Positions 4,423-58,095 of a DNA stretch of 64,000 nt are shown piece by piece. Source of the DNA: Chiloscyllium plagiosum (lineage: Eukaryota); assembly GCF_004010195.1 (NCBI RefSeq), contig NC_057719.1, positions 45,688,658 to 45,752,657 of the forward strand. Reading direction: 5' to 3'. The number at the start of each line of letters is the position of its first letter. Position 1 is the stretch's first letter. A program made the position numbers and the translations under genes. A model generated the notes under the pieces. That model searched no databases. It was not told the origin of the DNA and saw only the letters and a list, made by a program, of their open reading frames with translations.

Positions 4423-4457
4423 CACTAGCTTTCAGAGTTCTGCTCCTTCATCAGGTG
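4423..4457 (-). ncRNA. Minimal type I hammerhead ribozyme motif (family C), within a 4371-4460 repeat
   Basis: Minus strand CAC-CTGATGA-A-GGAG CAGAA CTCT-GAAA-GCTA-GTG. Stem I is CAC/GTG, helix III is the palindrome AGCT, and the cleavage triplet is CUA. The same repeat recurs as an inverted pair at 48561-48750. Confidence 0.7.
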
Positions 4458-5603
4458 GTTCCAAGTCAATCATTTATAAGATTGCATTCTAGTGTTAATC
4501 TTAGCGAGTCAAGACGAGCAGCTCTCTCTTCAGCAATGTTCAAGTACTGACCCGTCAAATAACTGTTTATTATAGTTAAAGGACAATATTTCACTGCCAA
4601 GGGACTTTTGGAGTGGTTTTACATCATGAAAGACCCAGTAATAGTCCTCCCAAGGGTTTCTCACTAAAAAGACAAACTGGAAGATATGAATTACATCAGG
4701 TCATTACAGATGATCTAAAAGCAGACGAAAAGTAAGCTAGTAAGAACTGATAAGATCATTTTCCTGGAAAAACAACAGGCTTGGGAAAAGGTTTCAGAAA
4801 TTCAACCCACAACATAACAAAGCCTACAAAAATATTGTTATATTGAACCTTTTAACACTGGATTTTGAAATGTCAAAATGTATGTAGACAAGTTCAGTGA
4901 TAAAAGCTGACATTGAAATTTCACTAAAAAAGTCATGAAAACAGAATGCTGAACCGAAAAATTCACGCATACATGAGATTTTTATATGCATTTATTAGGT
5001 ATAGATCTAATTTTAGATAATGAAGAAAATGAACCAGAAGATAGTTGGAAACATGACTGAAAAATGGACTTATCATATCAGCATTTGGAAGTATTTAAAA
5101 TGTGAAGACAGAGGTGAAGAAGTAGCAAGGCTCAAAACTGTGAAACAATGATAACTGACGGTCTCTACAAGCTGTTGTGCCAAAAGATTAAGGGAAAGTA
5201 CAAAAGGTTAGAGAATTCGAAAACTTGGCCTGAGATAAACGGCTGAGGAAGACTTAAATACATTATGAAACAAAGGTTTTTTTTATTAACTTTTACGACA
5301 TAGATGTCACTGGCTGGCTAGCATTTATTACCCATCCCCAATTGCCTTTGAGAAGGTGGTGGAGAGCTGTCTTCTTGAAATATTGCAGTCCATGGGCTGT
5401 AGGTTGATCCACAATGCCCTTAGGAAGGAAATTCCAAGATTTTGACTCAGCGACAGTGAAGGAACAGTGATATACTTCCAAACCAGGACAATGAGTGATT
5501 TAGAAGGGGACTTGCAGGTGGTATCTTCTAGTTGGAAGTAGCCATGTATTTAGAAGATGTAAGGATCTTTAGTGAATTTCTGCAGTACTACCTGTAGCTA
5601 GTA

Positions 5604-5779
5604 CAAGTAATTCTGGTACAATGTGATGGTTGCGTTCCTGTGCAACATTATAGGAAATCACACTGTAGATGATCGCTACAGAAAATTGCTATACCCATTC
5701 AGTAGAAAGTTCACGTCATTCATCAATCGCGTAATAGCCAATTCACGTAGATGAAACACACACTATACAGAAATGCCTG
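5604..5779. mobile_element. Probable TA-targeted MITE (Tc1/mariner-Tigger-like)
   Basis: Imperfect TIRs caagtaattctg...cagaaatgcctg. Interrupts the LINE at a TA site. Confidence 0.4.
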
Positions 5780-6220
5780 CATACACTGTTGCTACGGGGT
5801 GTCAGTGGTGGAGGAAGTGGACGCTTGTGGATGTTGTACCAATCAAGCAGACTGCTATATCCTGGATGGTGTCAAGCTTCTCGGGTGTCGTTGGAGCTGT
5901 ACCAATTCAGGCAAATGACTTATACTCCTGACTTGTACCTTGTAGATAGTGGACAGCCTTTGGATAATCAGGAGGTGACTTTCTTGCCGCTGTATTCCTA
6001 GCCTCTGGTCTGCTCTTGTAGTCACTGTATTGATATGGTGACTCCAGTTGAGTTTCCAATCAATGGTGACCCCCAGGATTTTGATCATGGGGGATTCATT
6101 GGTGGTAAAACCATTCAATGTCAAGGGACAGCGGTTACATTCTCTCTTGTTAGAGATGGTCATTGCTTGGCACTTGTGTGCCATGAATGTTACTTGCCAC
6201 TTATCAGCCTAAGCCTGGAT

Positions 6221-7797: not shown

Positions 7798-8279
7798 AAA
7801 CAAAAGAAAATCAAAGGACTGCAGATGCTGGAAATCTGAAACAATAACAGAAATTGTTGGAAAAACTCAGCAGGTCTGGCAGCATCTGTGGAGAGGAACC
7901 AAGTTAACATTGTGGATGTCAATATTGAGTTCAATAATTTTAGGGCCTGAGCATCTTCTCACATATCCTTACCTTAAACCACACAAACTTGGTGTCTTGT
8001 CACATGGGGTGCTACCATGACCATCCCATTGTCAGCTACTAATAGTCCCAATTAGACCCCATTTCTTTGTCTGCCCAACTGTTTTTCTCTCTTTCTCAGC
8101 TCCTCCTCCACCTATTGTTTACTCCTCCTCTGTTCCCCTAGCCCATCTACAGCAGATAAACCAACCTCTTCCTAGCTACAATCAGTTTTAAAGAAGGGTC
8201 ACTGGATCCAAAATGTCAACTCTGATTTCTCTTCACAGATGCTGCCAGACCTGCTGACTTTTCCAAGCAATTTCTGTTT
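7798..8279. mobile_element. Inverted-repeat PLE pseudo-LTR insertion (family D) with decayed hammerhead
   Basis: Arms at about 7845-7915 and 8205-8279 are reverse complements. Decayed core agttTTAAAGA-A-GGGTC ACTG GATCC-AAAA-TGTC-aact at about 8184-8221. Degenerate TSD cccctggct / ccactggct. Confidence 0.6.
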
Positions 8280-8659
8280 TGATCCACTGGCTTGATGATA
8301 ATGGTTGAGGGGGGAATGCCGAGCCATTAGGTTGCAGATTGTACTAAAGTACAATTCTGCTGTGACTTGACCCACATCACCTCATGGATGCCCAGACCTG
8401 AGTTACTAGATCTATTTGAAGGCTGTCTCATTTAGCACAGTGGTAGTGCCACACATCATGATGGGCAGTATTCTCAATGTGAAGGCAGAACTGCGTCGCC
8501 ACAAAGACTGTACAGTGGTCATTCTTACCAATACTGTCATGGCCAGACATGTGCGACAGATATACTGGTGAAGACGAGTTCAAGTAGAAATTTCCCTCGT
8601 GTTGGTTCCCTCACTCTCTGCTGCAGATCCAGTCTGTAAGTTATGCCCTTTAGGATATG

Positions 8660-14320: not shown

Positions 14321-15968
14321 CCCTATTTGACCTAATATTGCCTGGCATGTGATGTGATGAGGTGAAATAAAATGACTAATTTACTTTATATTGCTCCAAT
14401 GAAATGGCTAGATGTTTTATTATGCTAAAGACACATCTATAAGTAAGCTGTTGTTGAAAAGACAGACAGGTGAATGGAGTTTGACAAAGAGTAGCCATAA
14501 TCACATTAAACTTTGAGTTGTCTCTGAGGGGCTACATAGGTTTCTCTGTTCCTATAAAAAGCAAATGTTACAGGAGAAAAATTCAAACATTAGAATATAT
14601 TTAGGGAATTTTAAAATAAGCTTACTATATTTAAAAAAAGTGACAGACTGATCCACAGCCACTAACCCCTGTTTTATCTAAATTGGCTATGACTTTCTGT
14701 GTGCCATGTCAAAGGGAATTGATTTGCTTTTTGAATAGTTGTCAAGATTAGTTGAAATTTGAAATGAACAACTACTAAAATTGGAACCATTCACCAAACA
14801 TAATATACTGTCAGTAATATCCAATTATGATGACTTTTCAACTTGTTCATATTACACCAATTAATTCAGGTATAAACTGAAATGTAACAGTAGGTCAGAC
14901 GAACCTTATCAAGCACTTGCAAAATTTGTTGACTTAAATAGGTTTTGCTGGGTTAAAGATACAGATGCTAAATTTGACCAGCATAATTGGTTACGGAAAA
15001 AAAATCATCTCAAGTTCCTGCCTGCCTTGATCAGCAAATGCTGTTGGAAGCATATATGCAGACATCAAATGAGGAGACAATCAGGCTCATTGATGCAGAC
15101 TCTTCCACCCATGTGTGCCTCCCTATAGAACTTCCATTTTGTCAAAATTCAAGAGGCGTATTGAAACGCACGGCCAATACGCTAACAACGCTTTCTGGAC
15201 AGAAGGATGGAAGGACAGAAACATTTACAAATTCACATTCACCATCTTGGACACTTTAATAGACTTAAAATTAGGACAGAACCTGTGAAATTATGATTAA
15301 AAAGGAGAATGTCATGGTTTAAAAGGTAAACTTGAGGGTTTGAGTCTAGCTCCACAAGATCTTCTATAGTCAGTTAGTGTCTTTCTGCATTTGGGCTCAT
15401 CTTTGGTCTGTTAAACTTTATGTAGTTTCTACTTCTCTATTAATTTGACAGGATGCTCAGTCAATTTCCAAACAATCCCTGATCCATGCAAAGCAGTGAA
15501 AACAGTGAATTTGATGGAGCAATGACCTGTAGTTGTGATAGCAAACTGGCTGTGCAAATTTCAAAGGCATGCAGCCTTGCTTCTTAGTCACTGCTCAGCA
15601 CTTCAATGTTCATCTTACACAATTAAATCTACTGCGCTGCGGTAGTAGATAAAATCATTAATTTCCTGTACTTAGCTCCACTTATGAAGTGACTTGAGAC
15701 ATCTTCCCAATTAAGTGTTATACAAAGGTATGCTGCAGTCACAATAACTTGCAGCAATACAAAATAGAATTTATTGGCAAACAAATGGGGGAACATAAAT
15801 CTCAATGGCCTGTGAACTTTTAGAAACATAAATCTTCTGCAGGAATTGCGAAAACAAATTTTGATGTTACGTGTGAGTGAAAGTAAGCGTTTTACAGAAT
15901 TTCTTTTAATGCTTTCACAAACCTCAAGCACAGAATTCTTGGAAAAGAAGGAATATGTAATCACTTAC

Positions 15969-16053
15969 AGATAGATAGCATCTTTCTGGATGTACATTCT
16001 CAATACCATTGTGCCCCTGAGGGAATATGCAGCTTCAATAAAGGCATCATTTT
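15969..16053 (-). CDS. TXNDC16: TXNDC16 internal coding exon (85 bp, phase 1 to 2; last found in window)
   Basis: gtttcag|AAAATGAT...ATCTATCT|gtaagt. Translates (E)NDAFIEAAYSLRGTMVLRMYIQKDAIY(L), resembling human KEDFSEAGNYLKGYVITGIYSEEDVLLL. Phase is consistent with the upstream exon. Confidence 0.88.
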
Positions 16054-16722
16054 CTGAAACATAAGACAGGCTTTTAGGGCACTCAATTTCTTAAAGTTGA
16101 TGAAGGCAAAAAGTTGATTTCAAAGGCAAACACAAAAAGATTAAAGTTTCAATTTTGAGAAATATATTAATGATGCAACTTGATTTTTAGAGATTGCAGA
16201 GTGTAACCTTGTGTGTTATAGTCCACACAGATTCTGTATGGTAACAATTACAACATATTTTGGGATCTCCATGAAAGGGATGTTTATTTCTTACTGGAAA
16301 TTTCAGAATGGAAATAACACAATTCCAATATAGCTCAGTTGGCTAAATGATTTGCATGTGGTTCAGAGTAATACCAACAGCATGGGTTCAATTCAGGCTC
16401 AGAGAGACTTGGACCTCCCTTCGCTTCCTTCCCCAAGTATGGAAAGCAATGGCAAACCACTATTGACAAAAAATTGCCAAGAAAACAGTTCAAGATGAAG
16501 GAACAACATCAGACAACAAGCCTTTGAGGAAAGCACACATGGAATGGAATGGAAATATGGTAGTTGAGGAACACAAAGTTACAACATTTAAAAGGCATTT
16601 GGACAATACAGGAATAGGAAAGGTTTTGAGGGATATGGGCTAAATTTAGGCAATGGGATTAGTTTGATTTGGGAAATTTGGTTGGTGCAGGCACATTGGA
16701 ATCAAGGGCCTGTTTAGACTGT

Positions 16723-18090
16723 AAGACATTGGAACAGAAATTAGGTCATTCAGCCCATCGAGTCTGCTCTGCCATTCAATCACAGCTGAAATGTTTCTCA
16801 TCTCCATTCTCCTGCTTTCTCCCCACAATCCTTGATCCCCTTGGTACTCAAGAACATATCTATCTCAGTCTTAAATATACTCAATGACCTGGCCTCCACA
16901 GCGTTCTGTAGCACTGAATTCCATAGATTCACCACTCTCTGGTTGAAGAACTTTCTCCTTATCTCCATTCTAAAAGGTCTTCCCTTTACTCTAAGACAAT
17001 GCCCTTGGGTCCTAGTCTCTCCTACCAATGGAAACATCTTCCCTACATCTACTCTGTCCAGGCCATTCAGTATTCTGTATGTTTCAATTAGATTCCCCCT
17101 CATCCTTCCAAACTCTCAAATATAAACCGTGAGTCCTCAAACATTCCTCATAGGTTAAGCATTTCATTCCTGGGACCATTCTCATGAACCTCCTTTGAAC
17201 CTGCTCCAGGGCCAGTACACTCTTCCTGAGATATGGGGCCCAAAACTGCGCACAACACTCCAAATGTGCGCCAGAGCCTTACAGAGCCTCAGAAATACAT
17301 CCCTGCTTTTATACTCAAGACCTCTCAAAATAAATGCCATCGTTGCATTTGCCTTCCTAACTACTGACTCAACCTTAAAGTTTACCTTAAAGTTGAAAGA
17401 ATCTAGGACGAGAACTCCCAAGTCTCTTTGCACTTCAGATTTCTGAATTTTCTCCCCATTTAGGAAATAGTCCATGCATCTATTCTTCCCACTAAAGTGC
17501 ATGACCTCACACTTTCCCATGTTATATTCCATCTGCCACTTCTTTGCTCACTCCCCTAACCTGTCCAAATCCTTCTGCAGTCTCCTCACCTCCTCAATGC
17601 TACCAGTCCTTCACCTATCTTTGTATCGTCTGCAAACTTAGTGAGAATGCCCTCAGTTCCTTCATCTATATCGTTAATGCATAAAGTGAAAATTTGTGGT
17701 CCCAACATGTGCCTTGTGGAACACCACTTGTCACCAGCTGCCATTATGAGAAGGACCCTTTTATCCCCATTCTCTGCTTTCTGCCAGACAAGCTTCTATC
17801 CTCTGACACAATGGGCCTCTTATCTTACTCAGTAGCTTCCTGTGTGGTACCTTGTTGAAGGCCTTCTTGAAGGTAGATAACCTCCATTGGGTCTCCTTCA
17901 TCTAACCTGCTCGTTACTTCCTCAAAACATTCTAGCAGATTTGTCAGGCATGACCTCCCCTTGACGTAACCATGCTGACTTTGCCCTATTTTAGCATACA
18001 CTTCCAAGTATTCAGAAACCTCATCCTTCATAATGGATCTTACCCAAGACTGAGATTAGGTTAATTGGTTTGTAATTTCCCATTTTGTGC
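16723..18090 (-). mobile_element. 5'-truncated CR1 LINE (second subfamily)
   Basis: ORF pieces QHGYVKGRSCLTNLL, MEYNMGKCEVMHF, RDLGV and RGNLIETYRIL...VVNLWNS. Confidence 0.9.
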
Positions 18091-19343
18091 TTTACTCACT
18101 TACTTTTGCCTTACTTACTTTCTGTAATATATTTACCATTCCTCTTCTCATTGTCATTCGTTTGTCCAGAGTGCTTGAAGTTTGATTGTTAACCCTTTCC
18201 ATGTACTCTGTCCTATGTGTGTCTGTGCTGGAGATTTTAATAACGTCTCCTGGACTTTGCACTCTTACCTCTGCCTTTCATTCAGGTTTTCTAATTTACC
18301 TGATAAATTAGAAATTTCCACCCCCCCCCCCCCCCCCCCGTCCACCACCTATTTAGCTTAAAGCCCTGTCTATAGTCTTAGTTTTGCAATGCACTCGGAC
18401 TCTGGTCCCAGAACGGTTCAACTGAAGACCGTCCCATCGGAACAGGTCACTTCTTCCCCAGTACTGGTGCCGATGACCCATGAATTCAAACCCATTCCTC
18501 CAACACCAATCTTTGAATCACGCATTTACCTGCTTAATCTTATTGACCCTGTGCCAATTAGCTCGTGGCTCAGCTAGGAATCCAGGGGTTAATTACCTTT
18601 TTGTGTTTCGGTGCTGTTTGACTCTATAAGAAAGGAAGGTAGTAATAGGCCAGTAAGCTCACTGCCCACTCTCATATTTAATGAGATCATTGCTAATCTT
18701 GTACTTCAAAATCATTTTCCTGCATTGTTCCCCTCCCCTCCTTATCTGTTAATGTTTCTAAAATGTAGAAATTTATTGGTATCAGCCCTGAACATAACTA
18801 AACACTGAAATTCCCACAGGCGCATGGGGGCAAAAAATTTCAAAGATTCAAAGTAGTGATCTTTCTGGTATTCAATTGGTCATAGCCTATCAACCCGAAA
18901 ATGATTCATCTATTTATATTCTATGTTTTCTGTCTGTTAACCAGTTCTCAATCCATGCCAGTATATTCCACAAATCTGAAGTGCTTTAATCTCTTGTGTG
19001 GGACCTTATCAAAAGACTTAAACATGCCACATCTACTGGTTCCCCTTTGTCTATTCTGATAAGTAATATACACACAAAACTCCAACAGGCTTGTCAAATA
19101 TGATTTGTCTTTCATAAATATAAAGTAGACTAGATACAATCATAACATTTTTTTCTAAGTGTCTGTTGTCACATCCTATTAGATTCTAGCATTTTACCTA
19201 CAACTGATATTGGGCTAATAAGTCTGTAGTTTCAGGTTTTCTCTGTAGTTTTCTGTTATTTTCCCCTGGCGATGAAGAACAAGTGTTGAAAAATGTGATG
19301 CTGGAAAAACACAGCAGGCCAGGCAGCATCCGAGGAGCAGGAG

Positions 19344-19378
19344 AATCAACGTTTCAGGCATTAGCCCTTCTTCAGGAA
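19344..19378 (-). ncRNA. Minimal hammerhead motif (family A) in a PLE pseudo-LTR fragment at about 19285-19392
   Basis: Minus strand TTC-CTGAAGA-A-GGGC TAAT GCCT-GAAA-CGTT-GATT. Immediately followed on the plus strand by a short inverted copy gaagggcttatgcccga. Confidence 0.6.
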
Positions 19379-20462: not shown

Positions 20463-20659
20463 AGATTAGATTCCCTACAGTTTGGAAACAGGTCCTTCGG
20501 CTCAACAAGTCCATACTAACCCTCCGAAGAGTAATCCACCGAGACCCATTTCCCTCAGACTAATGCACTTAACACTACGGGCAATTTAGCATGGCCAATT
20601 CACCTGACTTGCACATCTTTGGACTGTGGAAGGAAACTGGAGCACCCGGAGGAAACCCG
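20463..20659 (-). mobile_element. 5'-truncated HE1-like SINE inside the L1/Tx1 element
   Basis: Matches 28330-28520 (gcaatttagcatggccaattcacctgac...ggagcacccggaggaaaccc). Confidence 0.85.
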
Positions 20660-28163: not shown

Positions 28164-28321
28164 CTAGCAAGGGAAAAAATGAATATCAACAACTCAGGCA
28201 ATATAGTTGCACATCATTAAGAACTCTTAAAATGTCCAGCAAAAGGTATCCAACACAGTTTAATAGCAAGCAACATGACCAATGATGCTCAAATTCAACA
28301 ATCACAATCAACCATATTGTA

Positions 28322-44204: not shown

Positions 44205-44284
44205 CTGTCTTTCCATAGGGTAACCAATTTGCCTACTCTACAATGAATCAGTTCAAACGAAGGGACTAAAAATGCAGGGTTAAA

Positions 44285-45115
44285 GAACAATATGTGAGGG
44301 AGTAGAATTAACCAAATTGCAGGGATCCCGAAGATCTGCTTTGCCAGTCGATCATGGCAGATATGTTTCTCAACCTCATTCTCCTGCCTTCTCCCCATTA
44401 CTCTTGATCCCTTACTAAATAAGAGCCTATCTATCTCTGCTTTAATTACACTCAATGACAGCCTCCGCACCCTCTGGCTGAAGAAATTCCTCCTTATCCC
44501 AGTTTGAAAGGATAGTTCTTCCACTCAGAGGCTGTGGCCTCATGTCCGAGTCTCACCTACTAGTGGAACACCTTTTCCACGTCCATTCTACCCAGGCCTC
44601 TCAATGAGTTTCAATGAGCTCCCCGCTCATCCTTCTAAACCCTCAGTACAACCAAGAGTCCTCAACCACTCCTCGCGTGACAAACCCTTTATCCCTGGAT
44701 CATTCGTGTAAACCTCCTGTGGACTCCTTCCAAAGCCAGAACATCCGTCCTTAGATAGAGGGCCCAAAACTGCTCACAATAATTCAAAAGTAGTCTGACT
44801 AGAGTCTTATACAGCTTCAGCAGTGCATCCCTGTTCTAGTATTTGAGCCCTCTCTAAATGAACGCTAACATTACATTTGCCTTCCTCACTGCTAACTGAA
44901 CCTGCATGTTAATGTTAAAAGAATCCTGAACTAGTAATCCTGTTCTTCTGTGCATCAAATTTCCAAATCCTTTCCCCATTTAGCCTCTATTCTTCCTCCA
45001 ATGTGCATAATCTCACACATTCCCACATTGCATTCCATTTGCCACACTGCTTTGCACACTTTACCCTGTCCCAGTCCTTCTTCAGCCACTCCATCTCCTC
45101 TACACTATCTGTCCC
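44285..45115 (-). mobile_element. Decayed CR1 3' part
   Basis: Colinear similarity to 16740-17600. Confidence 0.8.
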
Positions 45116-45377
45116 TCCATAGCACTGACCATAGTTACCATTCTATAATTCAATACTGTTCTATGTCTCATTAGCACAACAGAACTATACTGAGCAGCAA
45201 GAAGAACGGCAAGGGGCAGTTAGCTACAATGCAAATGTTTTGAAATGAACAAAAAGTGAATGATTGGAACCTTAAGATTAGCACAAGTAACACAGATTGA
45301 GGATTCCATACAAGACATGCACAACAGACAGCTGCTGAAATTAAATATCAAGGAAAGGTAATTATGTCACAAATTAC

Positions 45378-45437
45378 CTGCAAGTCTGGTAGATACTTCT
45401 GCATAGGACTGCAAGAATGCCATGGAAACAGCATCCC
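45378..45437 (-). CDS. TXNDC16: TXNDC16 internal coding exon (60 bp, phase 1 to 1)
   Basis: cttttag|GGGATGCT...CTTGCAG|gtaatt. Translates (W)DAVSMAFLQSYAEVSTRLA, resembling human WQAVSMAFLQSYIDVAVKL as recalled. Confidence 0.93.
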
Positions 45438-45499
45438 CTAAAAGATCAATAATTAAAAATATTAACCCTGCAAAATGTCTTATACCAGCCTACCATACA

Positions 45500-46120
45500 T
45501 ATTTAAATGTAGGACTAGGTACTACAAGTCGTCTCACATAAACTCCTTATTTTTTTTGTAAACTTTCCAATCAAATTATCTTCTACTGAATCAACCAAGC
45601 ATACTGCTGAGATACCGCAGGAACCACAAGGGAATAAAGACCTTGATAGAATTTGTGTATTGGCCTCCTTACAGTAGTCAGGATGTGGGGAAGAAAATAG
45701 ATCAGGAGATAGAAAAAGCATGCAAAGAAACAATAATCACGCAGGATTTCAAAATGCAGGTATATTGGGAAAATCAGGTTGGCAATGAATCTCAAGAAAA
45801 GGAATTCATAGAATGTCTATGAGATTTTTTTTGGAGCAACCTGTGGTAAAGCCCATAAGTGTAATGAGGTAATGTGTAACATGTAACCAGAGGTAACAAT
45901 TGAGTAAAGGTAATGACAAAGACATGAGGAAGGAGCTGGTCAGAGTTGATTGGAAGGGGAACTTAATCGGGAATACGATGGAGCAGCAATGGCAGGCGTT
46001 TCTGGCATAATTTAGGAGAAGAAACACACAAAGGAGGACGAGGCAGTGATGGCTGATGAGGGAAGTCAAGGACCAGCATAAAAGCAAAAGGAAAAGCACA
46101 TGATATGGTGAAGATTCCAC
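45500..46120 (+). mobile_element. Old CR1 endonuclease-region fragment
   Basis: Similarity to 10100-10750 (YRPP-like and GDFN-like remnants). Confidence 0.55.
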
Positions 46121-48560
46121 TGGATGCTAATAGCTTCACTGAAATTGCACCATTACCTGACATTAATGATCATTCTCATAGCTAACAATAATATAATAAT
46201 TCATATTTAACTTGTAATAATAAATATGCCTGGTTAGTGCATCTGTAACCAGTAATTACATAATTCACTGCAAATCACCATGAAACCAAGCCTAAAACTC
46301 TCGGGTCAAGGTTCCATTCCCCTACAAAATCAAAGCCATTTAAAATGGTTCTGAGTTACTTTTGGATTATTATTCATAAAGAAACAGGAAATAATAGTCA
46401 AGTGAAATGAGATCCAGCTTGCCACCTCCACTGTTGCACTGTCCTGAGTTGTCGAGCAATAATTTATCAGTCCACCAGCCTTATGGGAAGTGGTAGCAAA
46501 ATAGTAATGTCACTGGTTTGATAATAACTCCTCACCCAGCTTTCTCCACTGCAACAATTATGAAATAGTTTGATTTTTGCTTCCCTAAACTATTCTTTAT
46601 AGCTAATGCAGTGCTAAGACGTTGGCGCAAAAGAAGTTTCTCTGACTGGGGATATGGTAGCTAAATTGCCATTGGTCTAATCAATATAAGAACTCATGAT
46701 GATCAGCTTGATGTATCACACTCCCATTGGGAAAGTCCTAGTAGAGCCCTATTTTCCTGCACCAAAACAGTTTTTGCCGTCCCTTTATTTGGAGGATTAT
46801 GGTATCTGAATTTTAATTAGCCTAATCAATTCAGAACATCATGATGATTATTTTGATGTACCATACTCCGTGTCAGGAAGCTGCAGTTAACTCTCACACA
46901 CAGCTAACTCGTTCATTTATAATAGATAAAGCAAGTCTCAGTAATGGAGCCAAGAAACTATTATCAGTTATCATAAAAACCCATCTAGCTCATTAAAGTT
47001 CTATAGAGAAGGAAATGTGCCATCCTCACCTGATCTGCCCCCATGTGACTCTATCACTGCAGCGTGTGGTTGATTCTAACCTGACCTCTGAAATGGCCTC
47101 ACGACCAGTGTTCAAGGACAATTAGGGATAGGGAACAAATGCTGATCTTACCAATGATGCAAATAAACTCCAGCCTTTGAATCTAGAAGTATGATTATTT
47201 TTAACTTCTGGAAACCAGAAGGCATATCTGGCTGGCCTGTGTAAGACCTCAAAGATTTAAATAGATTTTACATTGAATTAAATGAAGAACAACCAAACCA
47301 ATTAATGCCAGGCAGCGAGAAAAAAAGAGAGGCATCATCATTTGCAAACAAAATGGCAATCCAAATGGAATTAACACCCAACTAAAAAGTACCAATGGAG
47401 AGGTAATGTCTCCACTAATAACTGGGAGATAAGGGACTATGGCAGTAAAAAATACAAACAAAATTTGTCAGTGCACACCTCAAACTAAAGTCAAGCCATC
47501 AGATCCAACAAAGTGAATTTCAGAACAGGCACTTGGTGAACCTGTTGGCAATTTCTTACCAGGATTTAAAAATACAGCTGGATGATGTAAGGTTAAGGAT
47601 GAAAATGAAATTCTGCTAGTTCTGAAATTCTGAGGTATGAAAATATTTGTTTGGAGAAGGACAAGTTCTCAATATGTCAGTTTGTAGACATTCACCCAGA
47701 GACAATGAAGCCATTAGCAGACAGGTGAAGATGCTGGCTACCCAAATGGCTTGCCAACAGTTAAGTCAGGAAAAAGACTCAAAGATTGAAGCTGTGAATT
47801 AGTAAGAAAAGAAGGCAACCAGAAAGAAAGGTCACCAAGAGCTGTGATGAGATCACAGATGAAAATGACCAGTATATGGACTGCACTGCTGACCTTGTGG
47901 AAACCTTCAGAAGAAATACGCAGAACAAGGAAAGAAGATAGTAAAAATGTTACGAATGACTGAACATGGGATGAATGGGAAAAAAAAACATTTATATCTT
48001 ACATCATGATTGTTTGAAGATACAACAGGATAGGAACATTGCAACCAAATGAAATGTACAGATGCAACAGCTCTTATAGGAAAGCAGTTCACAAACATTC
48101 AGATTAGTAAGAGAATGAGAACTAAGCTCCCAGCCATAAATCTGGAGCTTATGATCAATACTAGAACATAGAGTAATATTATGCCAAGCAGACTAAAGCA
48201 GAGGACCTTGCCTGAAAATTTGAATGAAGATGATTACTCAAGGAAAGATGCTGTGAGATTGAGCAAAGTCATGCTCAGGCCATATAGGGGAAGTAGATGC
48301 AAGAAAAAGAAAAACTCATATCAGAAGGACACACAAAGAATACACAGTTGACATATATTTCTCTGTAACTAAAACAGATAACCCTAAAGTATTGGGATTG
48401 AACATTTGTGAAAAGCTGAAACTTGACTCAGCAGACCATGAAGTGAAAAAGGTGAGAATAAGGATTGAAAGTAGTAAATTCACTGAAAGGTATCCCTGAA
48501 TCAGAAGCAAGAACGTCTGGTACAATTGTCTGAAGAAATGTATGAACATCTTCTGGGATC

Positions 48561-48780
48561 AAGTTAAAAATCACACAACACCAGGTTGTAGTCCAACAGG
48601 TTTATTTGGAAGTGCAAGCTTTCGGAGCGCTGCTCCTTTGTCAAGTAGCTAGTGGGATGGCTACCTGGCGAAGGAGCAGCGTTCTGAAAGCTAGTACTTC
48701 CAAATACACCTGTTGGACTATAACATGGTGTTGTGTGATTTTTAACTTTGTCCACCCTAATCCAACACTGACACTCCAAA
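48561..48780. mobile_element. Fold-back family-C element with two degenerate hammerheads
   Basis: Arms at about 48561-48650 and 48659-48749 are reverse complements. Plus-strand core TAC-CTGGCGA-A-GGAGC AGC GTTCT-GAAA-GCTA-GTA. One-sided tail of about 30 nt. Confidence 0.75.
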
Positions 48781-51021
48781 GAAAAAGAAAGAAGCATATG
48801 TCAGGTGTAGACAGATAGATCGAGTGAATCCTTAGAAGAGTATAAAGGCAGTAGTGGTCTACTTAAGAGAGAAATCAGGAGGGCAAAAAGGGCACATAAG
48901 ATAGCTTTGGCAAATAGAATTAAGGAGAATCTAAAGGGTTTTTACAAATACATTAAAGACAAAAGAGTAACTAGGGAGACAATAGGGCCCGAAAATGTGT
49001 TGCTGGAAAAGCGCAGCAGGTCAGGCAGCATCCAAGGAACAGGAGAATCGACGTTTCGGGCATAAGCCCTTCTATGCCCAAAACGTCGATTCTCTTCTTC
49101 CTTGGATGCTGCCTGACCTGCTGCGCTTTTCCAGCAACACATTTTCAGTTCTGATCTCCAGCATCTGCAGCCCTCACTTTCTCCTCGAAGACAATAGGGC
49201 CCCTCAAAGATCAGCAAGGTGGCCTTTGTATGGAGCTGCAGGAGATGGAGGAGATACTAAACGAGTATTTTGCATCAGTGTTTACTGTGGATATAGAATG
49301 TGGAAATAGATGGTGACATCTTGAAAAATGTCCATATTACTGAGGAGGAAGTGCTGGATGTCTTGAAACGCATTAAGGTGGATACATCCCAGGACCTGAT
49401 GAGGTGTACTCTAGAAATCTGTGGGAAGCTAGAGAAGTGATTGCTGGGCCCTTTGCTGAGATATTTGTATCATTGATAGTAACAGGTAAGGTGCCAGAAG
49501 ACTGGAGGTTGGCTAACATGGTGCCACTGTTTAAGAAGGGTGGTAAGGACAAGCCAAGGAACTATACACCAGTGAGCCTGACGTTGGTGGTGGAGGGAAT
49601 CCTAAGAGACAGGATGTACATGTATTTGGAAAGGCAAGGACTGATTAGGTATAGTCAACATGGCTTTGTGGGTGGGAAATCATATCTCACAAACTTGATT
49701 GAATATTTTGAAGAAGTAACATAGAGGATTGATGAGGGCAGAGCGGTGGATGTGGTTTATGTGGACTTCAGTAAGGTGGTTGAAAAGGTTCCTCATGGGA
49801 GACTGATGAGCAAGGTTAGATCTCATAGAATACAGGGAGAACTAGCTATTTGGATACAGAACTGGCTCAAAGGTAGAAGACAGAGGGTGGTGGTGGAGGG
49901 TTGTTTTTCAGACTGGAGGCCTGTCACTAGCAGAGTGCCACAAGAGTCGGTGCTGGAGTCACTAGATTTTCGTCATTTATATAAAGGTTTTGGATGTGAG
50001 CATGAGACCTAAGGAACAATTTCTTCACGCACAGGGTGGTATGTGTATGGAATGAGCTGCCAGATGATGTGGTGGAGGCTGGTACAATTGCAACATTTAT
50101 AGTTAGTAAATTTGCAGATGACACCAAAATTGCAGGTGTAGTGGACAGCAAAGAAGGTTACCTCAGATTACAACAGGATCTTGATCAGATGGGCCAATGA
50201 GCTGAGAAGTGGCAGATGGAGGTTAATTCAGATAAATCTGTATTTTGGGAAAGCAAATCTTAGCAGGACTTATACACTTAACGGTAAGGTCCTAAGGAGT
50301 GTTGCTGAACAAAGAGACCTTGGGGTGCAGGTTCATAGCTCCTTGAAAGTGGAGTCACAGGTAGGTAGGATAGTGAAGAAGGTGTTTGGTATGCTTTCTT
50401 TTATTAGTCAGAGTATTGAGTACAGGAGTTGGGAGGTCATGTTGTGGCTGTACAGGACATTGGTAAAGCCACTTTTGGAATATTGTGTGCATTTCTGGTT
50501 TCTTTCCTATTGGAAGGATGTTGTGAAACTTGAAAGGGTTGAGAAAAGATTTACAAAGATGTTGCCAGGGTTGGAAGATTTGAGCGACAGGGAGAGGTTG
50601 AATATGCTGGGGCTGTTTTCCCTGGAGCGTTGGAGGCTGAGGGATGACCTTATAGAGGTTTACAAAATCATGAGGGGCATGGATAAAGTAAATAGACAAG
50701 GTCTTTTCCCTGGAGTGGGGGCGTCCAGAACTAGAGGACAAAGGTTTAGGGTGAAAGGGGAATGATATAAAAGAGACCTAAGGAACAATTTCTTCACGCA
50801 CAGGGTGGTATGTGTATGGAATGAGCTGCCAGATGATGTGGTGGAGGCTGGTACAATTGCAACATTTAAAAGGCATCTGGATGGATATATGAATAGGAAG
50901 GACTTGGAGGGAAATGGGCCGGATGCTGGCAGGTGGGACTAGATTGGGTTGGGATATTTGGTCGGCATGGACGAGTTGGACCGAAGGGTCTGTTTCCATG
51001 ATGTACATCTCTAAGACTCTA
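48781..51021 (+). mobile_element. 5'-truncated CR1 LINE (RT to 3' end), same subfamily as 8660-12376
   Basis: [31 protein letters not shown] and YCVHFW pieces. Tail ctctaagactctat. Confidence 0.93.
48991..49188. mobile_element. Fold-back non-autonomous PLE pseudo-LTR insertion (family A)
   Basis: 74-bp arms 48991-49064 and 49073-49146 (about 3 mismatches), plus a 42-nt tail. 14-bp TSD AGACAATAGGGCCC at 48977-48990 and 49189-49202. The empty site is visible in the paralogous CR1 at about 10927-10945. Confidence 0.87.
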
Positions 51022-52589
51022 TTACCCTACGTTAGCAGTAGTGGATAGAAGGTCCACAGTCCATTCCAGGAAGATGCCAGGAAATTCCAGGAAGCATGGG
51101 AAACACAAATGACAATATAACTGCATGTGATTGCTTGTGGCACAATTGTATTGTCCCTATCTTTGAGCCAGAAAGCTCAGGTTCAAGTGCCACCTGCCAT
51201 GGAAGTGCATCATAATCAAACATGTTGATAAAACAAAATTGCACATCAGAAAGAAGCAAAAGTGGTGACATTGAAACCTTATATGCCTTCAATTACAATT
51301 ATACGCACATATTTAGAAACAAGCCAGTGTCTATCAAAGTAACTGCTGATTCACTTTGTTTGGCTTCAACATTGGTTGTTAAGTCATTATTTATTTTGTA
51401 TTTTGTCACTATTTACACTCAAATTCCAATTATGCAAAACCTTGTTTACATTACATGAGGTCTGCCTGCCTGCAAACCTAAGCATGCTGCCAAAGATGTC
51501 TGCACAAGCTTAATAACGTGCACAGAGCATTCTGCAAACAAAACATTCAGGAGGACAAGAACCCTGACTTTCAATGTTTAAATCAAGACATTATTAAAAT
51601 GTGCCTAGGAAGATCAATGGACTATAATCTGGACTCTTATTCCATGCCATTTCAAAATGAAGCACGAAGACAAGACAGCTTCAGGGAACTCACTTCTCTT
51701 CACTTGGCTATCACTTGACTCCAGACTTTGACTGTAATCTTTCGTATTTATGTGAAGCAGAAACCACATTAGCACTTGTAATGAAACTTATGTGAAGCAG
51801 TCAAAAATTCCCAAATATGAAAATGCAATAAACATTCAATCCCTCCACCAACGCTGCACTGTGTCAACACATCAACAAAATGTAGTGGTGCAAATCACCA
51901 AGGTCTATCCACAGCACTTTTCAAACCTCCGACATCTACTACCTAGAAGAGCAAGACCAGGTGCATGAGAAAACCCCCATATAAGCGTTTCTATCAATGT
52001 CACTCATCATTCTGACTTGCAAATATATTGCTACTCTTTCACTGTTGCTGGGTCAGTATCCTGGAACTCCCTATCTTACTGCACTTTGTAATACCTACAC
52101 CATACAGGCTGCAACATTTAAGAAGGTAACTCTTGACCTTGAATTTATCGTTCATAATATGGATATGAATCAATATTTTCTAATGAAATACAAAATCTGG
52201 AAATCAAGCGATACAGGCTACATCATGCATCTGGCTCTGCTCTCCAAATCAAAGCTCACCAGTCGTCTCTGGCTGACTGAAGCAGATGGTACTCAGGATG
52301 ATGGCATTTTGGTCACATTATTTGATTCATAAACCAGACACCCACCTCAGAGAAGGGTTTAAAATGCCACCAAGTCAGCCGGTGGAAATGAAATACAACT
52401 AATTAATAAATCTGGAAATATAAACTAGTCTAAGAATGACTGATCCTGAAACAATTGGACTATCATAAAATTCCATCTGGTTCATGGATGTCCTCCAGGA
52501 CAGGAAATCTGCTATCTAAACCTAGTTTGGCCCATACTTGGTGGCCCATTTTATTCCCTTAATAAGCATTCATTCAGGACCAGCACTCT

Positions 52590-53158
52590 GAATTCAACAG
52601 TCAAAACGTTATGCTGCAGCTCTATAGAGCCCTGGTTAGACCATACTTGGAATAGTGTGTTCAGTTCTGGTTGCCTCATTATAGGAAGGATGTGGATGCT
52701 TTAGAGAAGGTGCAGAGATTTATCAGGATGCTTCCTGGATTGGAGGGCATGTCTTGTGAAGAGAGGTTGAGGGAGCTAGGGCTTTCTCATTGAAGCAAAG
52801 GATGAGAGGTGACTTGATAGAAGTGTACAAGATGATGAGAGGCAGATACAGTGAATAGTCAGAGGCTTTTTCCGAGGACAGAAATGGCTACCACAAGGGG
52901 GCATAATTTTTAGGTGACTTAGAAGAGATGTCAGAGGTAGGTTCTTGACACAGAGAGTGGTAGGTGTGTAGAATGCACTGCCAGCGGTGGTAGTAGAGTC
53001 ATATACATTAGGAACATTTAAACGACCCTTGGATAGGCACATGGATGATAGTAAAATGAAGGCTATCTAGGTTAGTTTGATCTTGGAGTCGGATAAAAGG
53101 TTGACACAACCTCGAGGGCTGAAAGGCCGGTACTATGCTACAATGTTCTATGTTCTAA
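52590..53158 (+). mobile_element. CR1 3' fragment (GTTCTAT-type tail)
   Basis: Reverse-complement similarity to 22466-23040; ends atgttctatgttct. Confidence 0.8.
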
Positions 53159-53869
53159 CACCATCAGCCTTCTCAGGTGGACACAAGAATCCCCATTTTG
53201 AAGAGATGGAGAGATTCTGTTGCGTTTCTATTTGACTTTCTGTTTATGTTACAAAACGAGTGCGTTCTCCAGTGTTCTGGCTAATACATATCCTTTAACC
53301 TACGTCGCTAAAAGACGTCATTACTTCACAGCCAATGGTATGACCTTGTCTATTCAAATTGGTTTTCACAGTTGCACATCACAACAGCGAGTACACTTCT
53401 AAAGTACTTCAGTGGCCGTAAATTGCTTTGAGTCACAACATAACTGCAAAATTTATAAGCTAGTTCAAATTCTTCCTTTACCCCACAACAGTGAACCCAA
53501 AATGTTCAGGACTCCAGAGTTACTATTCTCGAAACGTGTATCCTTTTCATGATTGGGACTTCCTATGAAACTTTATTGAGATTACGCCTGTGTCCATAGG
53601 AGACCAGCATCATACAATTGGCTCTAGGTGTAAAATCAGAAATGTGCTCTTTCCTATGAGCATTACTGTTCATAGTATTGCACCAGATTATGACCAAACA
53701 GGATAAGCCATCCTGTTATGCGATGTTCAAAGTTTTTTGGGGTTTGCTCCCCATGTCTTGAGGATTTAAGAAACAGGGCGAAAGTGAGAACTGCAGATGC
53801 TGGAGATTAGAGTAAAGAGTGTGGTGCTGGAAAAGCACAGCAGGTCAGGCAGCATCCGAGGAGCAGAAG

Positions 53870-53902
53870 AATCAACGTTTCGGGCAAATGCCCTTCATCA
53901 GG
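53870..53902 (-). ncRNA. Minimal hammerhead motif (family A) in a pseudo-LTR fragment at about 53778-53902
   Basis: Minus strand C-CTGATGA(53895-53901)-A-GGGC ATTT GCCC-GAAA-CGTT-GATT. Core and stem II are intact, but stem I is truncated by the junction with the L1/Tx1 element. Confidence 0.6.
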
Positions 53903-56900
53903 GTGGATATTGCTTTGTAACAGGAGACACACTTGGATGACAAGGAGCATCTGAAATTACAGCAGAATGGCTTTGACTGAGTTTATTTTTCATCATTTAA
54001 TGCCAGAGGTAGGGGAGGGGCTATATTGGTCAGGAAGAATCTTCCATTTAAATTGTGAGTGTGTGTTAAGACACACACGGGAGGTTTGTAGTTCTTCAAG
54101 CCTTGAGTAATGGGGAATAATATGGTGTTTCAAATGTTTATTGCCCTCCAGCTCATCCTCTTAAATTTTTGGTAGATGCATTTTCTAAACTGATAAGTCT
54201 CGAGTTCCGGCACATCATTATAGGGGGAGATTCTAACTGTCTCATGGATCTCAGAGTAGACAGGTTGCCCAAAGGTCCCTCGATACCCTCTGTACAAACT
54301 AAACAGTTAATGGGTCTGTTTGGGGAGTTAGGGTTGGTGGATGTCTGGAGGCGTCTCCACTCTACAGGCAGGGATTTTATGTTTTTCTCCAATCCGCACA
54401 GATGTCACACCAGGATTGGTCTTTTTCTGACCCCTGCAGCAACTCTGGATTTAGTGGCATCTTGTACGATTGGTAATATTACCATCTCTGCTCATGCTCC
54501 AGTGTACCTTATGGTTATGATTAAGGACATTACAATGGGTTCGAGGCACTGGCGAATGGATCCCTTCATCCTCAAGGATAATAAATTTGTGGAGTATTTC
54601 TCTAGGGAATTTCGGGCGTTCCTAGACATCAACTTAGGCTCGGTTGGTAGTTCATCCATCCTTTGGGAAACTGCCAAAGCCTATGCCAGGGGTTAATTAT
54701 TTCCTATTCCACATAAGCCCTTCTTCAGTCAGCATCTGCAGTCCTCACTTTTTCCCTTACTTTGACAGACCCTCATTGGTCAAACTACAGAGGTTTACGT
54801 CACTGCAGTCTGCACTAAATTCCGTGCTCACACAGACAGCAAAGAAGGAGCTGGCTTTTGCAAAGCAAAGGTTATACGAGCATGGTGACAAGCCAGGCAA
54901 ATACATAGCGTATCTTTCCAGGAAAAGGAGTGCCCCTCAAGCCAAAACAGTGATTAGTGAAGGGTCTGGGAACCTAGCATGTGATTCTAAAAAGATTAAT
55001 ATAGCGTTCTAGAGATTTTACTACCAATCTGAGGATTGTGAGGGGGAGCTGGACAAAATGGAGCCTTTTTTTAAGGATCTGAAGCTCCCGAGTACGATCC
55101 CTAAACAAGAGTCCTTTCTCAATGCCCTTATCAGAGCAAGAAGTGCAGGAAGCTGTGAGGCAACTTCAGAGTGGAAAGGCGCCCGGTCCTGGTGGACTTC
55201 CCAGTGAATTCTATAAGGAATTTATAAGTATACTGTCAGGCCCGATGTTCAATATATTTTATGACTCATAGAGTCATGATTGTCTCCCAACATCTCTGAG
55301 ACTGGCCAATATTTCACTTAGCCTTAAAAAAGGGAAGGACCCAGAAGACTGTGCTTCATACAGGCCCATTTCACTCCAATAATGTTAGGAGGCTGCTAAA
55401 TGTAATTCAAGCATGTCAACAACAGTCAATACAGGAATTGGTGATTTCTCTAGATGCAGAGAAGGCAATTGACTGAGTTGAATGGTAGTACTTTTTCTAT
55501 ACTCTGGAGTGGTTTGGTTTGGGTGAAGTCTTTATTAGATGGGTAAAGGTTCTCTATCGTGGTGCTCTCGCAGGGGTCATCACCAATGGGGTACGAACAA
55601 GCAGTTTATTATTTTTAGGAGCAGCTGGCAGGGCTGTCCCCTCTCGCCACTGCTTTTTACGCTGGTGATTGAACCATTGGCGGAGGCCATTCATGGGATC
55701 TCAATACATCAGCTCTAGAAGCGGGGTCAAAATTACATAAGATTTCATTGTATGCAGACACTGTCCTACTTTTTGTGACAAATCCAGCAGTTTCAGTGCC
55801 TCGCCTGATACAATGCGTTCACGTGTTTGGCACTTTTCAGGGTATAAGATTAATTTTGCGAAATCAGAGGCTATGCCATTGGGTGGTCTTACGAAGGAGC
55901 TAGTCTTGAGGGCGACTATAGATTCCTATTTAGGAGGTCACAGCGGGGTTTTGTGTATTTGGGCACATTCATTACTCCAGTTCTGGATCAGCTGTTCAAA
56001 GACAATTTTAACTAATTATTTGATAAAATTAAACTTTAGGAGACCTTCAAAGATGGGAGGCACTTCCGGTCTCGTGGTTGGGTCGGATAGCGCTTATTAA
56101 GATGAATATACTCCCCCCGTTTGCAATACTCTATACGGTCGTTCCCCCGATTTTCAGTAAGCAAACATTCAGGAGGCTGAACGGCTGGATCAGTTCCTTT
56201 ATTTGGCACCGTAAGTGGCTCCTCATTAAATTAGCTAAACTGCAACTGCCTCACAGATGGGGGGGAGTGGACTTTCCGGACATTAAAAATTACCAATTAA
56301 GAACGCTTTGGTCCTACATGAGTGCTTGAGTTTGTGGAGATCCTCTTTCAAAATGGCTAGGTATCGAAGCCTCCCAGGTGCCCCCTTACCAGTTTGCTGT
56401 TTTTGGACAAAATGAGGACAGTTAGGGAATACTGCCATAACCCAATAGTCATCAATACTGTTAAAGCATGGAGGGCAATTTGGTAAAGGGAAGGCAATAT
56501 TGGCAAAACATCTTTGTTTACACCTTTAGTGAGTATGCTAGGTTTTCAAGCGGGAATGAGAGATTCAGGTTTTAAACACTGGGCAGCTAGGGGTATGTTT
56601 TGCACTGGCAATTATTTGAGGGAGACGTAATACAGTCAATACAGTTAATACAGAAGTACGAGTTATCTAATAGAGACCTCTTTCATTTTTTGACAGATCC
56701 CTACAAATTTGACAGAGAGACAAGGGGGTGCTAAGTGATAAAAGTACACTTTCTGCCCCCTCAGATGAGTTTGATCGACTCTGCAAGGTGTGGGAGAGAG
56801 AGCTGGGCGTTGAAGTTTCCTCAGAGGCATGGGAGAATATTTGGGAGAATGCAAGGAAGATATCCATTTGCAATAGGACTCATGCTTTACAGTTGAAGGT

Positions 56901-57650
56901 TCCCACAGGGTCCATTTGGCTCTGGACCATTTGTCAAAATTTAAACCAGGGATACCTTCAGCATGTCCCAAGTGCAAAGTAAGAGTCCACGGGCATTCTT
57001 ACCCATTGTCTTTGGTCTTGTGATAGGCTTCAAACATATTGGAGTGCTGTGGCGGGCGCAATGGAGAGGACTTTGGGTCTAAGGGTGGAGAAGGACCCTA
57101 TCTCTCTCATTTTGGGCCTGCCCACTGTATTCCCTGCAGACGAACATAAGAAAATACTTTTCAATATTCTCATGTTCTGTGCAAGAAAGAATATCTTGCT
57201 AGGCTGGATATCCGAAAATCCCCCGGGCCTGTCGGTTTGGCGGAAGATTGTTATGGAGCATATTCCCTTGGATTTTCTCACAAATATGGTACCCCACAAA
57301 ACTGAGAATTTTTATAAGATGTGGCAGCCCTTTTTGGAATACCTGGACACAGATTTATCTGCCACACTTTATATAGTTGTAATGCTTGGGTTTTATGAGT
57401 CCAATATACAGGGAGGAGGAACTGTGAACTTATGAGCGTTTTGGTTGGCTAGGCTGAGTTATTACTCTTTATTAGTTTTTTGTTGGTTATTATTTATTTA
57501 GTTAAATAGCCAGTTTGGGGTTTTTTATTGTATAGTTTTCTATATGTGTTTATACATTTGTACCTGAGGGTAGGTTGGGTTTTTTTCACTTGTGTTTGTT
57601 TTTGTATTGTTTTGGATTGTATTGTTTTGTACTTGTTGTAATATTTGTAC
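53903..57650 (+). mobile_element. L1/Tx1-clade LINE ORF2 and 3' UTR, decayed
   Basis: Begins at the APE motif DIAL*QETHL. Then IIIGGDSN, DVWR, KAPGPGG, QGCPLSP, SGYKINFAKSE, GRIALIKMNILP, GGVDFP and a C-terminal CCHC-like CPKC...HCLWSC remnant. T-rich 3' UTR. Confidence 0.92.
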
Positions 57651-57651
57651 T

Positions 57652-58095
57652 TGTAGGTTTGCTCACTGAGTTGGAAGGTATGTTTCCAGACATTTCGTCA
57701 CCCTCCTAGGTAACATTTTCAATGGGCCTCTGGGCAAAGCACTTTGATAATTCCTGCTTTCTATTTATATGTTTGGGTTTCTTTGGGTTGGTGATATCAT
57801 TTCCTGTGATGATGTCATGGCATTCCAACCAGAACTCTACCAACAAACACATCAAGTTAGACCCCATCTACCACCCCCGGAGAAAAAAGAACAGGAAGTG
57901 ACATCACCACCGTAAATGATGCCACCACAGGAAATGATATCACCAGTCCAAAGAAACCCAAATATATAAATAGAAAGCAGGAATTATCAACAGTGCTTTG
58001 CCTGGAGGCCCACTGAAGATGTTACCCAGTAAGGTGACGAAATATCTGGAAATGAACCTTCCAGTTCAGCGAGCAAACCTACATCCAGAACTTCA
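57652..58095. mobile_element. Family-B PLE fragment with inverted pseudo-LTR pair
   Basis: Arms at about 57652-57818 and 57918-58083 are reverse complements around a GIY-YIG C-terminal remnant. Homologous to 41314-41600. Confidence 0.82.
58010..58049 (+). ncRNA. Minimal hammerhead motif (family B)
   Basis: CCA-CTGAAGA-T-GTTACC CAGTAA GGTGAC-GAAA-TATC-TGG. Helix III palindrome ATAT; AUC triplet. Confidence 0.72.

What the first reader, a model, noticed from the sequence alone, without database searches (positions are those of the whole stretch)
4423..58049. Four sequence-distinct families of minimal hammerhead ribozymes scattered through TXNDC16 introns
Seen in sequence: at least ten motifs share the form stem I-CUGANGA-extra nt-stem II-GAAA-4-nt palindrome overlapping NUH-stem I'. 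Family A (GGGC/GCCC, GAAACGUC) is at 19344, 39700, 42411, 43611 and 53870. Family B (GUUACC/GGUAAC) is at 41379 and 58010. Family C (GGAGC/GCUCC, GAAAGCUA) is at 4423 and about 48662. Family D (GGGUC/GACCC) is at 30735 and about 8184. The stems differ completely between families while the core and pairing are kept, which amounts to covariation. Established: PLE pseudo-LTRs carry minimal type I hammerheads with a palindromic, loopless helix III thought to act as dimers. Inference: these are four co-existing shark PLE or retrozyme-like lineages. A and B are physically linked to GIY-YIG remnants here, while C and D have no coding partner in the window.
Basis: partly seen in the sequence, partly recalled or inferred. 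Interest (0 to 1): 0.75.

Follow-up and report, generated by a model that had tools for sequence, protein, structure and literature searches.

The report
Penelope retroelement stubs carrying minimal hammerheads
The motifs are real but ordinary: they are mostly decayed end-pieces of Penelope-type jumping genes (three lineages, not four) in the introns of a shark gene, carrying an already described minimal hammerhead motif that was likely uncut when the copies were made and is predicted to be inert as a single copy.

Summary
Motifs confirmed: 9 of the 11 listed have both core boxes; 8 fit a loopless-helix-III descriptor against 0.012 per shuffle. All lie in TXNDC16 introns of a bamboo-shark-like genome, 7 of 11... 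on either strand. They are pseudo-LTR ends of Penelope-like elements (PLEs): 12-15 bp target duplications, head-to-head inversions and an optional 30-40 nt tail. B follows a Penelope/Poseidon-type endonuclease end; A follows a Neptune-type RT-linker-GIY-YIG remnant. D shares its tail with A, so three lineages, not four. C has no coding partner here but has the full PLE insertion signature and tens of thousands of genomic matches. No tandem arrays, so not retrozymes. Most copies are CpG-decayed; only 41416 is letter-perfect. The motif class is known (PMC4209133), and this scan has reported it many times in this and other shark genomes. Two side leads: 12 of 22 arms begin at or just inside the ribozyme's front edge and none at its cut site, pointing to an uncut template; and in one RNA run family C ends in a used poly(A) site about 30 nt past the predicted cut. 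Cleavage itself was not tested.

The parts
41379..41420 (-). Family B minimal hammerhead, the only letter-perfect copy; same strand as TXNDC16
41314..41748 (-). Family B insertion: C-terminal part of a Penelope/Poseidon-type GIY-YIG endonuclease, 3' repeat, hammerhead, tail; 13-bp target duplication at 41301 and 41749
57652..58096 (.). Family B insertion with head-to-head arms: hammerheads at 57685-57725 (-, first box broken) and 58010-58050 (+, boxes intact); short endonuclease remnant; no duplication found
42319..44204 (-). Family A parent remnant: RT thumb, CX4CxxC linker, GIY-YIG (frameshifts and stops), 3' repeat, hammerhead 42411-42446; inverted 5' arm 43800-44204 with decayed hammerhead 44109-44144 (+); 15-bp duplication (1 mismatch) at 42304 and 44205
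43512..43646 (-). Short family A stub (hammerhead 43611-43646 plus tail) inserted into the RT of the parent remnant; about 10-bp duplication with 1 mismatch
19282..19392 (-). Family A stub, hammerhead 19344-19378 (U17), tiny inverted arm at its head
53775..53904 (-). Family A stub, hammerhead 53870-53904 (U17)
39571..39826 (+). Family A subfamily copy with its own 3' repeat, hammerhead 39700-39735 (one stem II mismatch)
48991..49188 (.). Head-to-head family A pair, both arms begin inside the hammerhead; 14-bp duplication; empty site seen in a paralogous LINE near 10935
1631..1823 (.). Head-to-head family A pair, both arms begin inside the hammerhead; 15-bp duplication
40780..40823 (+). Family A fragment lacking the first box
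4372..4466 (-). Family C stub: hammerhead 4423-4457, AAUAAA at 4416-4411, GU-rich stretch; 13-bp duplication; same strand as TXNDC16
48558..48775 (.). Head-to-head family C pair: hammerheads 48613-48647 (-) and 48662-48696 (+), both first boxes broken; tail extension on one arm only; no duplication found
30734..30825 (+). Family D stub, hammerhead 30736-30771 (boxes intact, U17); 12-bp duplication
7798..8283 (.). Family D insertion: inverted arm 7798-7917, pyrimidine-rich repeat, decayed hammerhead 8184-8221 (+, both boxes lost); weak 9-bp duplication
15968..62773 (-). Host gene TXNDC16, exons 62773-62645, 61390-61247, 45435-45379, 36021-35851, 28156-28028, 16054-15968

Best explanation
These are dispersed, mostly decayed end-pieces (pseudo-LTR, minimal hammerhead motif, tail) of endonuclease-bearing Penelope-like retrotransposons from three lineages, likely copied from RNA that the ribozyme had not cut and predicted to be inert as single copies in the TXNDC16 pre-mRNA. 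Shown here: the motifs, the target duplications, the head-to-head arms, the optional tail, the coding links of A and B, and the A-D kinship. From the literature: the element's protein nicks DNA and starts reverse transcription at two sites in the tail; minimal hammerheads are inactive alone and weak as dimers or with protein help. Inferred (about 0.6): the 90-135 bp stubs arise when copying runs off the RNA's 5' end, which would lie a few bases before the CUGA box. Inferred (about 0.75): C is likewise the end of an autonomous PLE whose coding part is not in this window.
For: Duplications of 12-15 bp around 6 of 18 tested insertions, weaker 8-10 bp matches around 5, none around 7; empty paralogous site. 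A: upstream remnant hits all 56 relatives, best E 2e-31; two long relatives carry RT plus C-terminal GIY-YIG; CX4CxxC linker read directly, the Neptune/Nematis mark (PMC8557442). B: 82% identical to shark RT-GIY-YIG proteins without that linker. Tail: two 3' end classes in C genome-wide (loose ends at 4370 vs 4371-4373) and in the window's pairs. 5' ends of 22 arms: 7 at about -6 to -1 of C3, 5 at +5 to +13, 3 old D arms at +12 to +18, 7 long, 0 at the cut site (+28 to +34). Genome-wide inversion joints of C cluster at 4452-4460. Decay: CpG-type changes in 15-37% of laid D depth. No loss of sense-strand copies: 6 sense, 3 antisense among intact cores, P 0.51. PMC11167929 found uncut RNA to be the main substrate.
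Against: No cleavage assay and no whole genome, so no full-length parent of C or D was seen. The upstream repeat of D does not align with that of A (z 0.5-1.9); kinship rests on the tail. Arms were partly found through the hammerhead, three weak tail-only hits (31033, 32515, 32673) could not be mapped and were left out, paired arms are not independent, and the two C pair arms were placed by eye. Loose ends pile up at the query's edge by construction; only their low agreement (0.36-0.41) suggests unique flanks. The orientation test has n = 9 and little power. An extra G at the stub's head is seen in only 3 of 5 junctions.
Confidence: 0.88

Rival explanations
1. C (and perhaps D) are non-autonomous SINE-like or retrozyme-like elements that copy as short units using a PLE protein in trans.
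For: No coding remnant near C or D; very many short matches (about 57-58 thousand contigs per DNA run for C; 3.3-3.9 thousand for D); sharp 5' edge; retrozymes exist in one chondrichthyan genome and derive from PLE ends (10.64898/2026.07.22.740005).
Against: No tandem array holds a motif; many C and D copies continue upstream into shared sequence (loose ends; 8188 has 260 nt); A, which has a coding parent, makes the same stubs; D shares A's tail.
Confidence: 0.12
2. Some sense-strand copies cut the TXNDC16 pre-mRNA, for example 43642 (A) and 41416 (B) pairing through their shared ACGU 4-mer within one intron.
For: Three sense copies with intact boxes lie within 2.3 kb of one intron; two share the same 4-mer; predicted folding of 41416 gives stems I and II, and its self-dimer pairs through the 4-mer.
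Against: 43642 has two G-U pairs in stem II and a 2-bp stem I, and its predicted fold hides the CUGA box; dimers cut weakly in vitro (PMC4209133) or need the element protein (PMC11167929); no strand bias.
Confidence: 0.05
3. The 5' edge of the stubs reflects reverse-transcriptase stalling, template switching or an intron end at the ribozyme rather than the RNA's start.
For: Five A arms begin inside the hammerhead, four of them at inversion joints; in Drosophila virilis Penelope the intron's 3' end maps to helix I (PMC4209133); D has an AG two bases before the box (sequence).
Against: A stall should fall at the 3' foot of a helix, not beyond its 5' foot (inference); A and C have no AG at that place in the long copies or loose-end consensus.
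Confidence: 0.3
4. The motifs are chance matches in repeated DNA.
For: Core boxes alone occur about 3 times per shuffle; copies of one repeat are not independent.
Against: Even three or four hits to the fuller descriptor never occurred in 500 shuffles; seven pair positions keep pairing across families, permutation P 1.5e-6 for four families and 1.7e-4 for three lineages (pairs chosen after seeing the data); the position in the element matches known PLE hammerheads.
Confidence: 0.01

Closest known systems
Minimal hammerheads (min-HHR) in pLTRs of metazoan PLEs, Cervera and De la Pena 2014 (PMC4209133; parts 1-2 of 4 of the main text read, supplements not seen)
   Same: CUGANGA and GAAA boxes, one extra base before stem II, G10.1-C11.1, self-pairing 15.2-16.2, no loop 3, several sequence families per genome, mostly single dispersed copies, some opposite-strand pairs; reported in fish Xena, Poseidon and Neptune elements.
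   Different: No shark is named in the parts read. Stem II is 4-5 bp in A, C, D (7 in B); stem I of A is 2 bp; D has U17.
Endonuclease-positive PLEs: Neptune (family A, D by tail) and Penelope/Poseidon (family B) (PMC8557442 and PMC3846280, passages read)
   Same: C-terminal GIY-YIG after RT, CX2-5CxxC linker in A and absent in B's relatives, strong 5' truncation, inverted 5' arm, 30-40 nt tail on one end, target duplications.
   Different: Only remnants here; Neptune versus Nematis was not separated by a tree; duplications are 12-15 bp against 8-10 bp in the rotifer examples.
Poseidon of Anolis (PAc), Frangieh et al. 2024 (PMC11167929; passages and second half of main text read)
   Same: Hammerhead at the repeat-tail junction; two 3' end classes that match two RT start sites; no reads ending at the cut site.
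   Different: Tested in vitro there; nothing tested here. The clustering of 5' ends at the ribozyme's front edge is not described in the parts read.
Non-LTR retrozymes (10.64898/2026.07.22.740005; parts 1-2 of 5 and passages read, supplements closed)
   Same: Type I hammerheads related to PLE ends; one chondrichthyan genome has them.
   Different: Defined as tandem repeats with a ribozyme in each unit; nothing here is tandem.

Membership tests
Minimal PLE hammerhead (min-HHR) | CUGANGA and GAAA boxes | tested here: met
   9 of 11 listed copies, 9 of 14 tabulated; genomic majority letters intact for C and D
Minimal PLE hammerhead (min-HHR) | Extra base between 9 and 10.1 and G10.1-C11.1 | tested here: met
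   Extra base in 14 of 14; G-C in 8, G-U in 5, broken in 1
Minimal PLE hammerhead (min-HHR) | Loopless, self-pairing helix III | tested here: met
   12 of 14 tabulated copies
Minimal PLE hammerhead (min-HHR) | Two-sided changes between families | tested here: met
   only three independent lineages
Minimal PLE hammerhead (min-HHR) | Self-cleavage at NUH as a dimer or with protein | not testable with these tools
   No assay; poly(A)-primed reads cannot show the short cut product
EN+ Penelope-like element | RT followed by C-terminal GIY-YIG upstream of the repeat | tested here: met
   A and B (only the part after the YIG motif is in the window)
EN+ Penelope-like element | Coding link for C and D | tested here: inconclusive
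   None in the window; no genome held; D linked to A by tail only
EN+ Penelope-like element | Inverted 5' arm, optional 30-40 nt tail, target duplication | tested here: met
   Seen in A, B, C and D insertions; 7 of 18 tested insertions gave no duplication
Neptune clade (family A) | CX2-5CxxC linker before GIY-YIG | tested here: met
   Read at about 43063-43040 minus; 53 of 56 relatives have it; shared with Nematis
Neptune clade (family A) | RT tree placement | not tested
   RT core absent from the window; no named references at hand
Penelope/Poseidon clade (family B) | No cysteine linker between RT and GIY-YIG | tested here: met
   By eye in P0013, P0018, P0020; no tree
Non-LTR retrozyme | Tandem units each with a hammerhead | tested here: not met
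   7 tandem rows, none holds a motif
Rfam hammerhead families | Covariance model hit | tested here: not met
   0 hits at gathering score; none at E up to 10 in 39500-44300

The most novel reading that the evidence does not exclude
In family C the hammerhead sits just upstream of a working poly(A) signal, so a cut would remove signal and tail together: a ribozyme-gated 3' end cassette, spread in tens of thousands of copies through shark genomes, that ends both element and host transcripts; and the element RNA itself starts at the ribozyme's first helix, so the stubs record the RNA start and the two RT start sites of each family.
Probability: 0.12. Interest if true: 0.6.

Novelty: new member of a known kind. 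Interest (0 to 1): 0.2.

Why it matters
As a discovery it matters little: the motif class, its link to PLEs and multi-family variation within one genome were published in 2014, and the scan has met it repeatedly in sharks. Its use is as material: very many stubs with sharp ends could map RNA starts and RT start sites for PLE families and test whether the hammerhead is ever used in transposition, which the literature read here leaves open (PMC8557442, PMC11167929). The poly(A) site in family C, if confirmed in more samples, would mean these repeats seed transcript ends.

Tried and rejected
No whole genome is held, so no genome-wide consensus or parent search. Rfam found nothing. Pfam on 16 window ORFs found only a thioredoxin piece and an endonuclease piece; no GIY-YIG hit on the broken remnants. 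A word-indexed protein search with the end of the A endonuclease found nothing; the full-library search with the linker did. A metagenome scan for the C motif gave two GC-rich bacterial-looking chance hits without the CUGA box. MAFFT did not hold all four families in register, so pairs were counted in a script and no covariance model was built. No RNA holder was listed for the unique test stretch. Run X22 laid no reads on D (no test). No RNA read ran into the unique flank of 4454 or 30739, so use of these particular copies is not shown. Minimum-energy dimer folds mostly gave non-hammerhead duplexes and are uninformative. Four weak core-only hits (5243, 21441, 44478, 54728) and 49340 were rejected by the fuller descriptor. 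A resemblance of C to reptile Neptune ends is recalled only and was not tested. Lunse et al. on dimer cleavage is not held and is known here only through its citation in PMC6765202. Look-ups of earlier findings by sequence and for the poly(A) site returned nothing.

Full report
Setting. An exon-like ORF at 35851-36036 (minus) found 12 shark TXNDC16 proteins, the best 95-96% identical, from Chiloscyllium and Hemiscyllium. With two of them tblastn mapped six exons on the minus strand between 62773 and 15968. All listed motifs are therefore intronic; the two lowest lie beyond the last exon seen. No whole genome is held.

The observation. Each of the 11 positions holds a hammerhead-shaped motif, 6 on the minus and 5 on the plus strand. 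Nine have both core boxes. 48662 has a broken first box; 8184 has lost both. A stepwise descriptor gave 10, 9, 8 and 5 hits as stem II, U16.1, the self-pairing 4-mer and H17 = A/C were added, against shuffle means of 0.106, 0.024, 0.012 and 0.004 in 500 shuffles. That U17 cuts more slowly than C or A is my own knowledge. Only 41416 is perfect throughout. D has U at position 17 in the majority and heavy CpG-type decay (15-37% at 30759-30761). About 57-58 thousand contigs per DNA run were laid on C in three runs from two organisms, and 3.3-3.9 thousand on D in two; these are not copy numbers. Rfam does not see the motif.

How many families. Tails after the cut site align strongly between A and D (z 3-17 over 9 pairs, 8.9-17 for the two better D copies), and not between C or B and the others (z at most 2.8 over the remaining cross-family pairs). 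So there are three lineages: A+D, B, C; 39704 is a further A subfamily. Across the four families seven pair positions keep pairing, six with changes; permuting 3' letters gives P 1.5e-6, or 1.7e-4 for A, B, C alone (majority pairs chosen after seeing the data). Within families most changes are decay. Stem I of A is two pairs and then a U-U mismatch.

What carries them. B at 41416 follows the C-terminal part of an endonuclease 82% identical to a Stegostoma protein with RT and GIY-YIG domains and no cysteine linker, the Penelope/Poseidon layout (PMC8557442, passages). A at 42442 follows a broken RT thumb, a CX4CxxC linker and a GIY-YIG core; the linker ORF found 56 relatives, two long ones with RT and GIY-YIG, named ones from a ray, whale shark and gar; all 56 hit 42647-43753 and only two marginal single-query hits fell elsewhere, none near C or D. 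Of 18 insertions tested, six have 12-15 bp target duplications, five have weaker 8-10 bp matches and seven none. One has its empty site in a paralogous LINE. Head-to-head arms occur in all four families, and the extra 30-40 nt tail sits on one arm; in C, contigs show the same two 3' end classes. These are the insertion marks described for PLEs (PMC8557442, PMC3846280, passages). No motif lies in a tandem array, which excludes retrozymes as defined in 10.64898/2026.07.22.740005 (parts 1-2 of 5).

How it likely works. PMC11167929 showed for an Anolis element that reverse transcription starts at two sites bounding the tail, that the hammerhead cuts only with the element's protein, and that uncut RNA is the main template. 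The window agrees: of 22 arms, 7 begin about 1-6 nt before C3 (two C arms judged by eye), 5 begin at +5 to +13, 3 old D arms at +12 to +18, 7 run far upstream, and none begins at the cut site (for 1696 and 1725 the alignment to 44113 was used because the partner arm mimics upstream sequence; three weak tail-only hits were left out). In contigs, the listed inversion joints of C have one side at 4452-4460 in 12 of the 13 opposite-strand rows shown, and loose ends at the front edge have near-random agreement (0.36-0.41 against 0.49-0.67 for shared tail). I infer that copying ran off an RNA 5' end lying on the first helix; stalling or template switching is the rival. I noted this reading before seeing that earlier agents had reached it many times; their added point, an extra G, appears in 3 of 5 junctions here, which is not significant. 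In Drosophila Penelope the start lies 46 nt before an intron that ends at helix I (PMC2377424 passages; PMC4209133), so a start upstream of the ribozyme has precedent, though not at it.

Effect on the host. Among nine intact cores six are sense to TXNDC16 and three antisense (P 0.51); same-strand neighbours are 1.0-18 kb apart. Single minimal hammerheads did not cut in vitro and dimers cut weakly (PMC4209133; PMC6765202 passages). The copies are predicted to be inert; a mixed A+B dimer in the 36021-45379 intron is not excluded.

A side result. In RNA run X21, 1,515 of 3,175 reads laid on C carry poly(T) at 4396 or 4399, 12-15 nt after AAUAAA, and depth is 98% unchanged across the predicted cut. 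So uncut, polyadenylated RNAs end in family C copies, mostly ones with upstream element sequence. This is one sample, reads are not assigned to loci, none entered this copy's flank, and such a library would lose a 30-nt cut product, so it says nothing on how much is cut.

Comparison and novelty. The motif is the min-HHR of PMC4209133. Library searches for shark, Penelope and hammerhead ribozyme gave one paper (PMC6155905, listing only); searches on Chiloscyllium/Neptune, start sites and poly(A) signals showed no paper on shark families, on the 5' edge or on a PLE poly(A) site, but the library is partial and the supplements of PMC4209133 and of the preprint were not seen. Penelope is listed among whale shark repeats (PMC8455134 passages). 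Verdict: new members of a known kind, interest 0.2.

Noticed in passing
window 4396-4416 (minus), family C genome-wide: In single-cell RNA run X21 (about 2% read, one sample) 1,515 of 3,175 laid reads carry poly(T) joined at 4396 or 4399, 12-15 nt after AAUAAA; about a third of DNA depth has the AUUAAA variant; a GU-rich stretch follows and no genomic A-run is present in the window's three copies.
   Followed up: partly
43512-43646: A family A stub sits inside the RT of an older family A element.
   Followed up: yes
4423/4457 vs 48662-48696: Third pair of stem I is C-G in 4454 and U-A in 48665, a two-sided change within family C.
   Followed up: partly
families A and C, first box: Predicted folds of 4 of 9 intact-core copies hide the CUGA box in a CCU/AGG hairpin, which would disfavour the active fold.
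   Followed up: no
30894-30927: An isolated piece of the family C tail end, with no hammerhead beside it.
   Followed up: no
13540-13670, 19480-19610, 30985-31085, 32470-32525, 32640-32745: Older A/D-like tails with little or no recognisable core.
   Followed up: partly
513-1965, 8600-12375, 16579-18100, 20125-25700, 48779-51193, 54006-57362 and others: Many LINE remnants (CR1-like and L1/Tx1-like by eye of their translations); about 30% of the window repeats within itself. Several stubs are inserted into them.
   Followed up: no
41473-41527, 57891-57945: An 18-bp unit repeated about three times in the family B 3' repeat.
   Followed up: no
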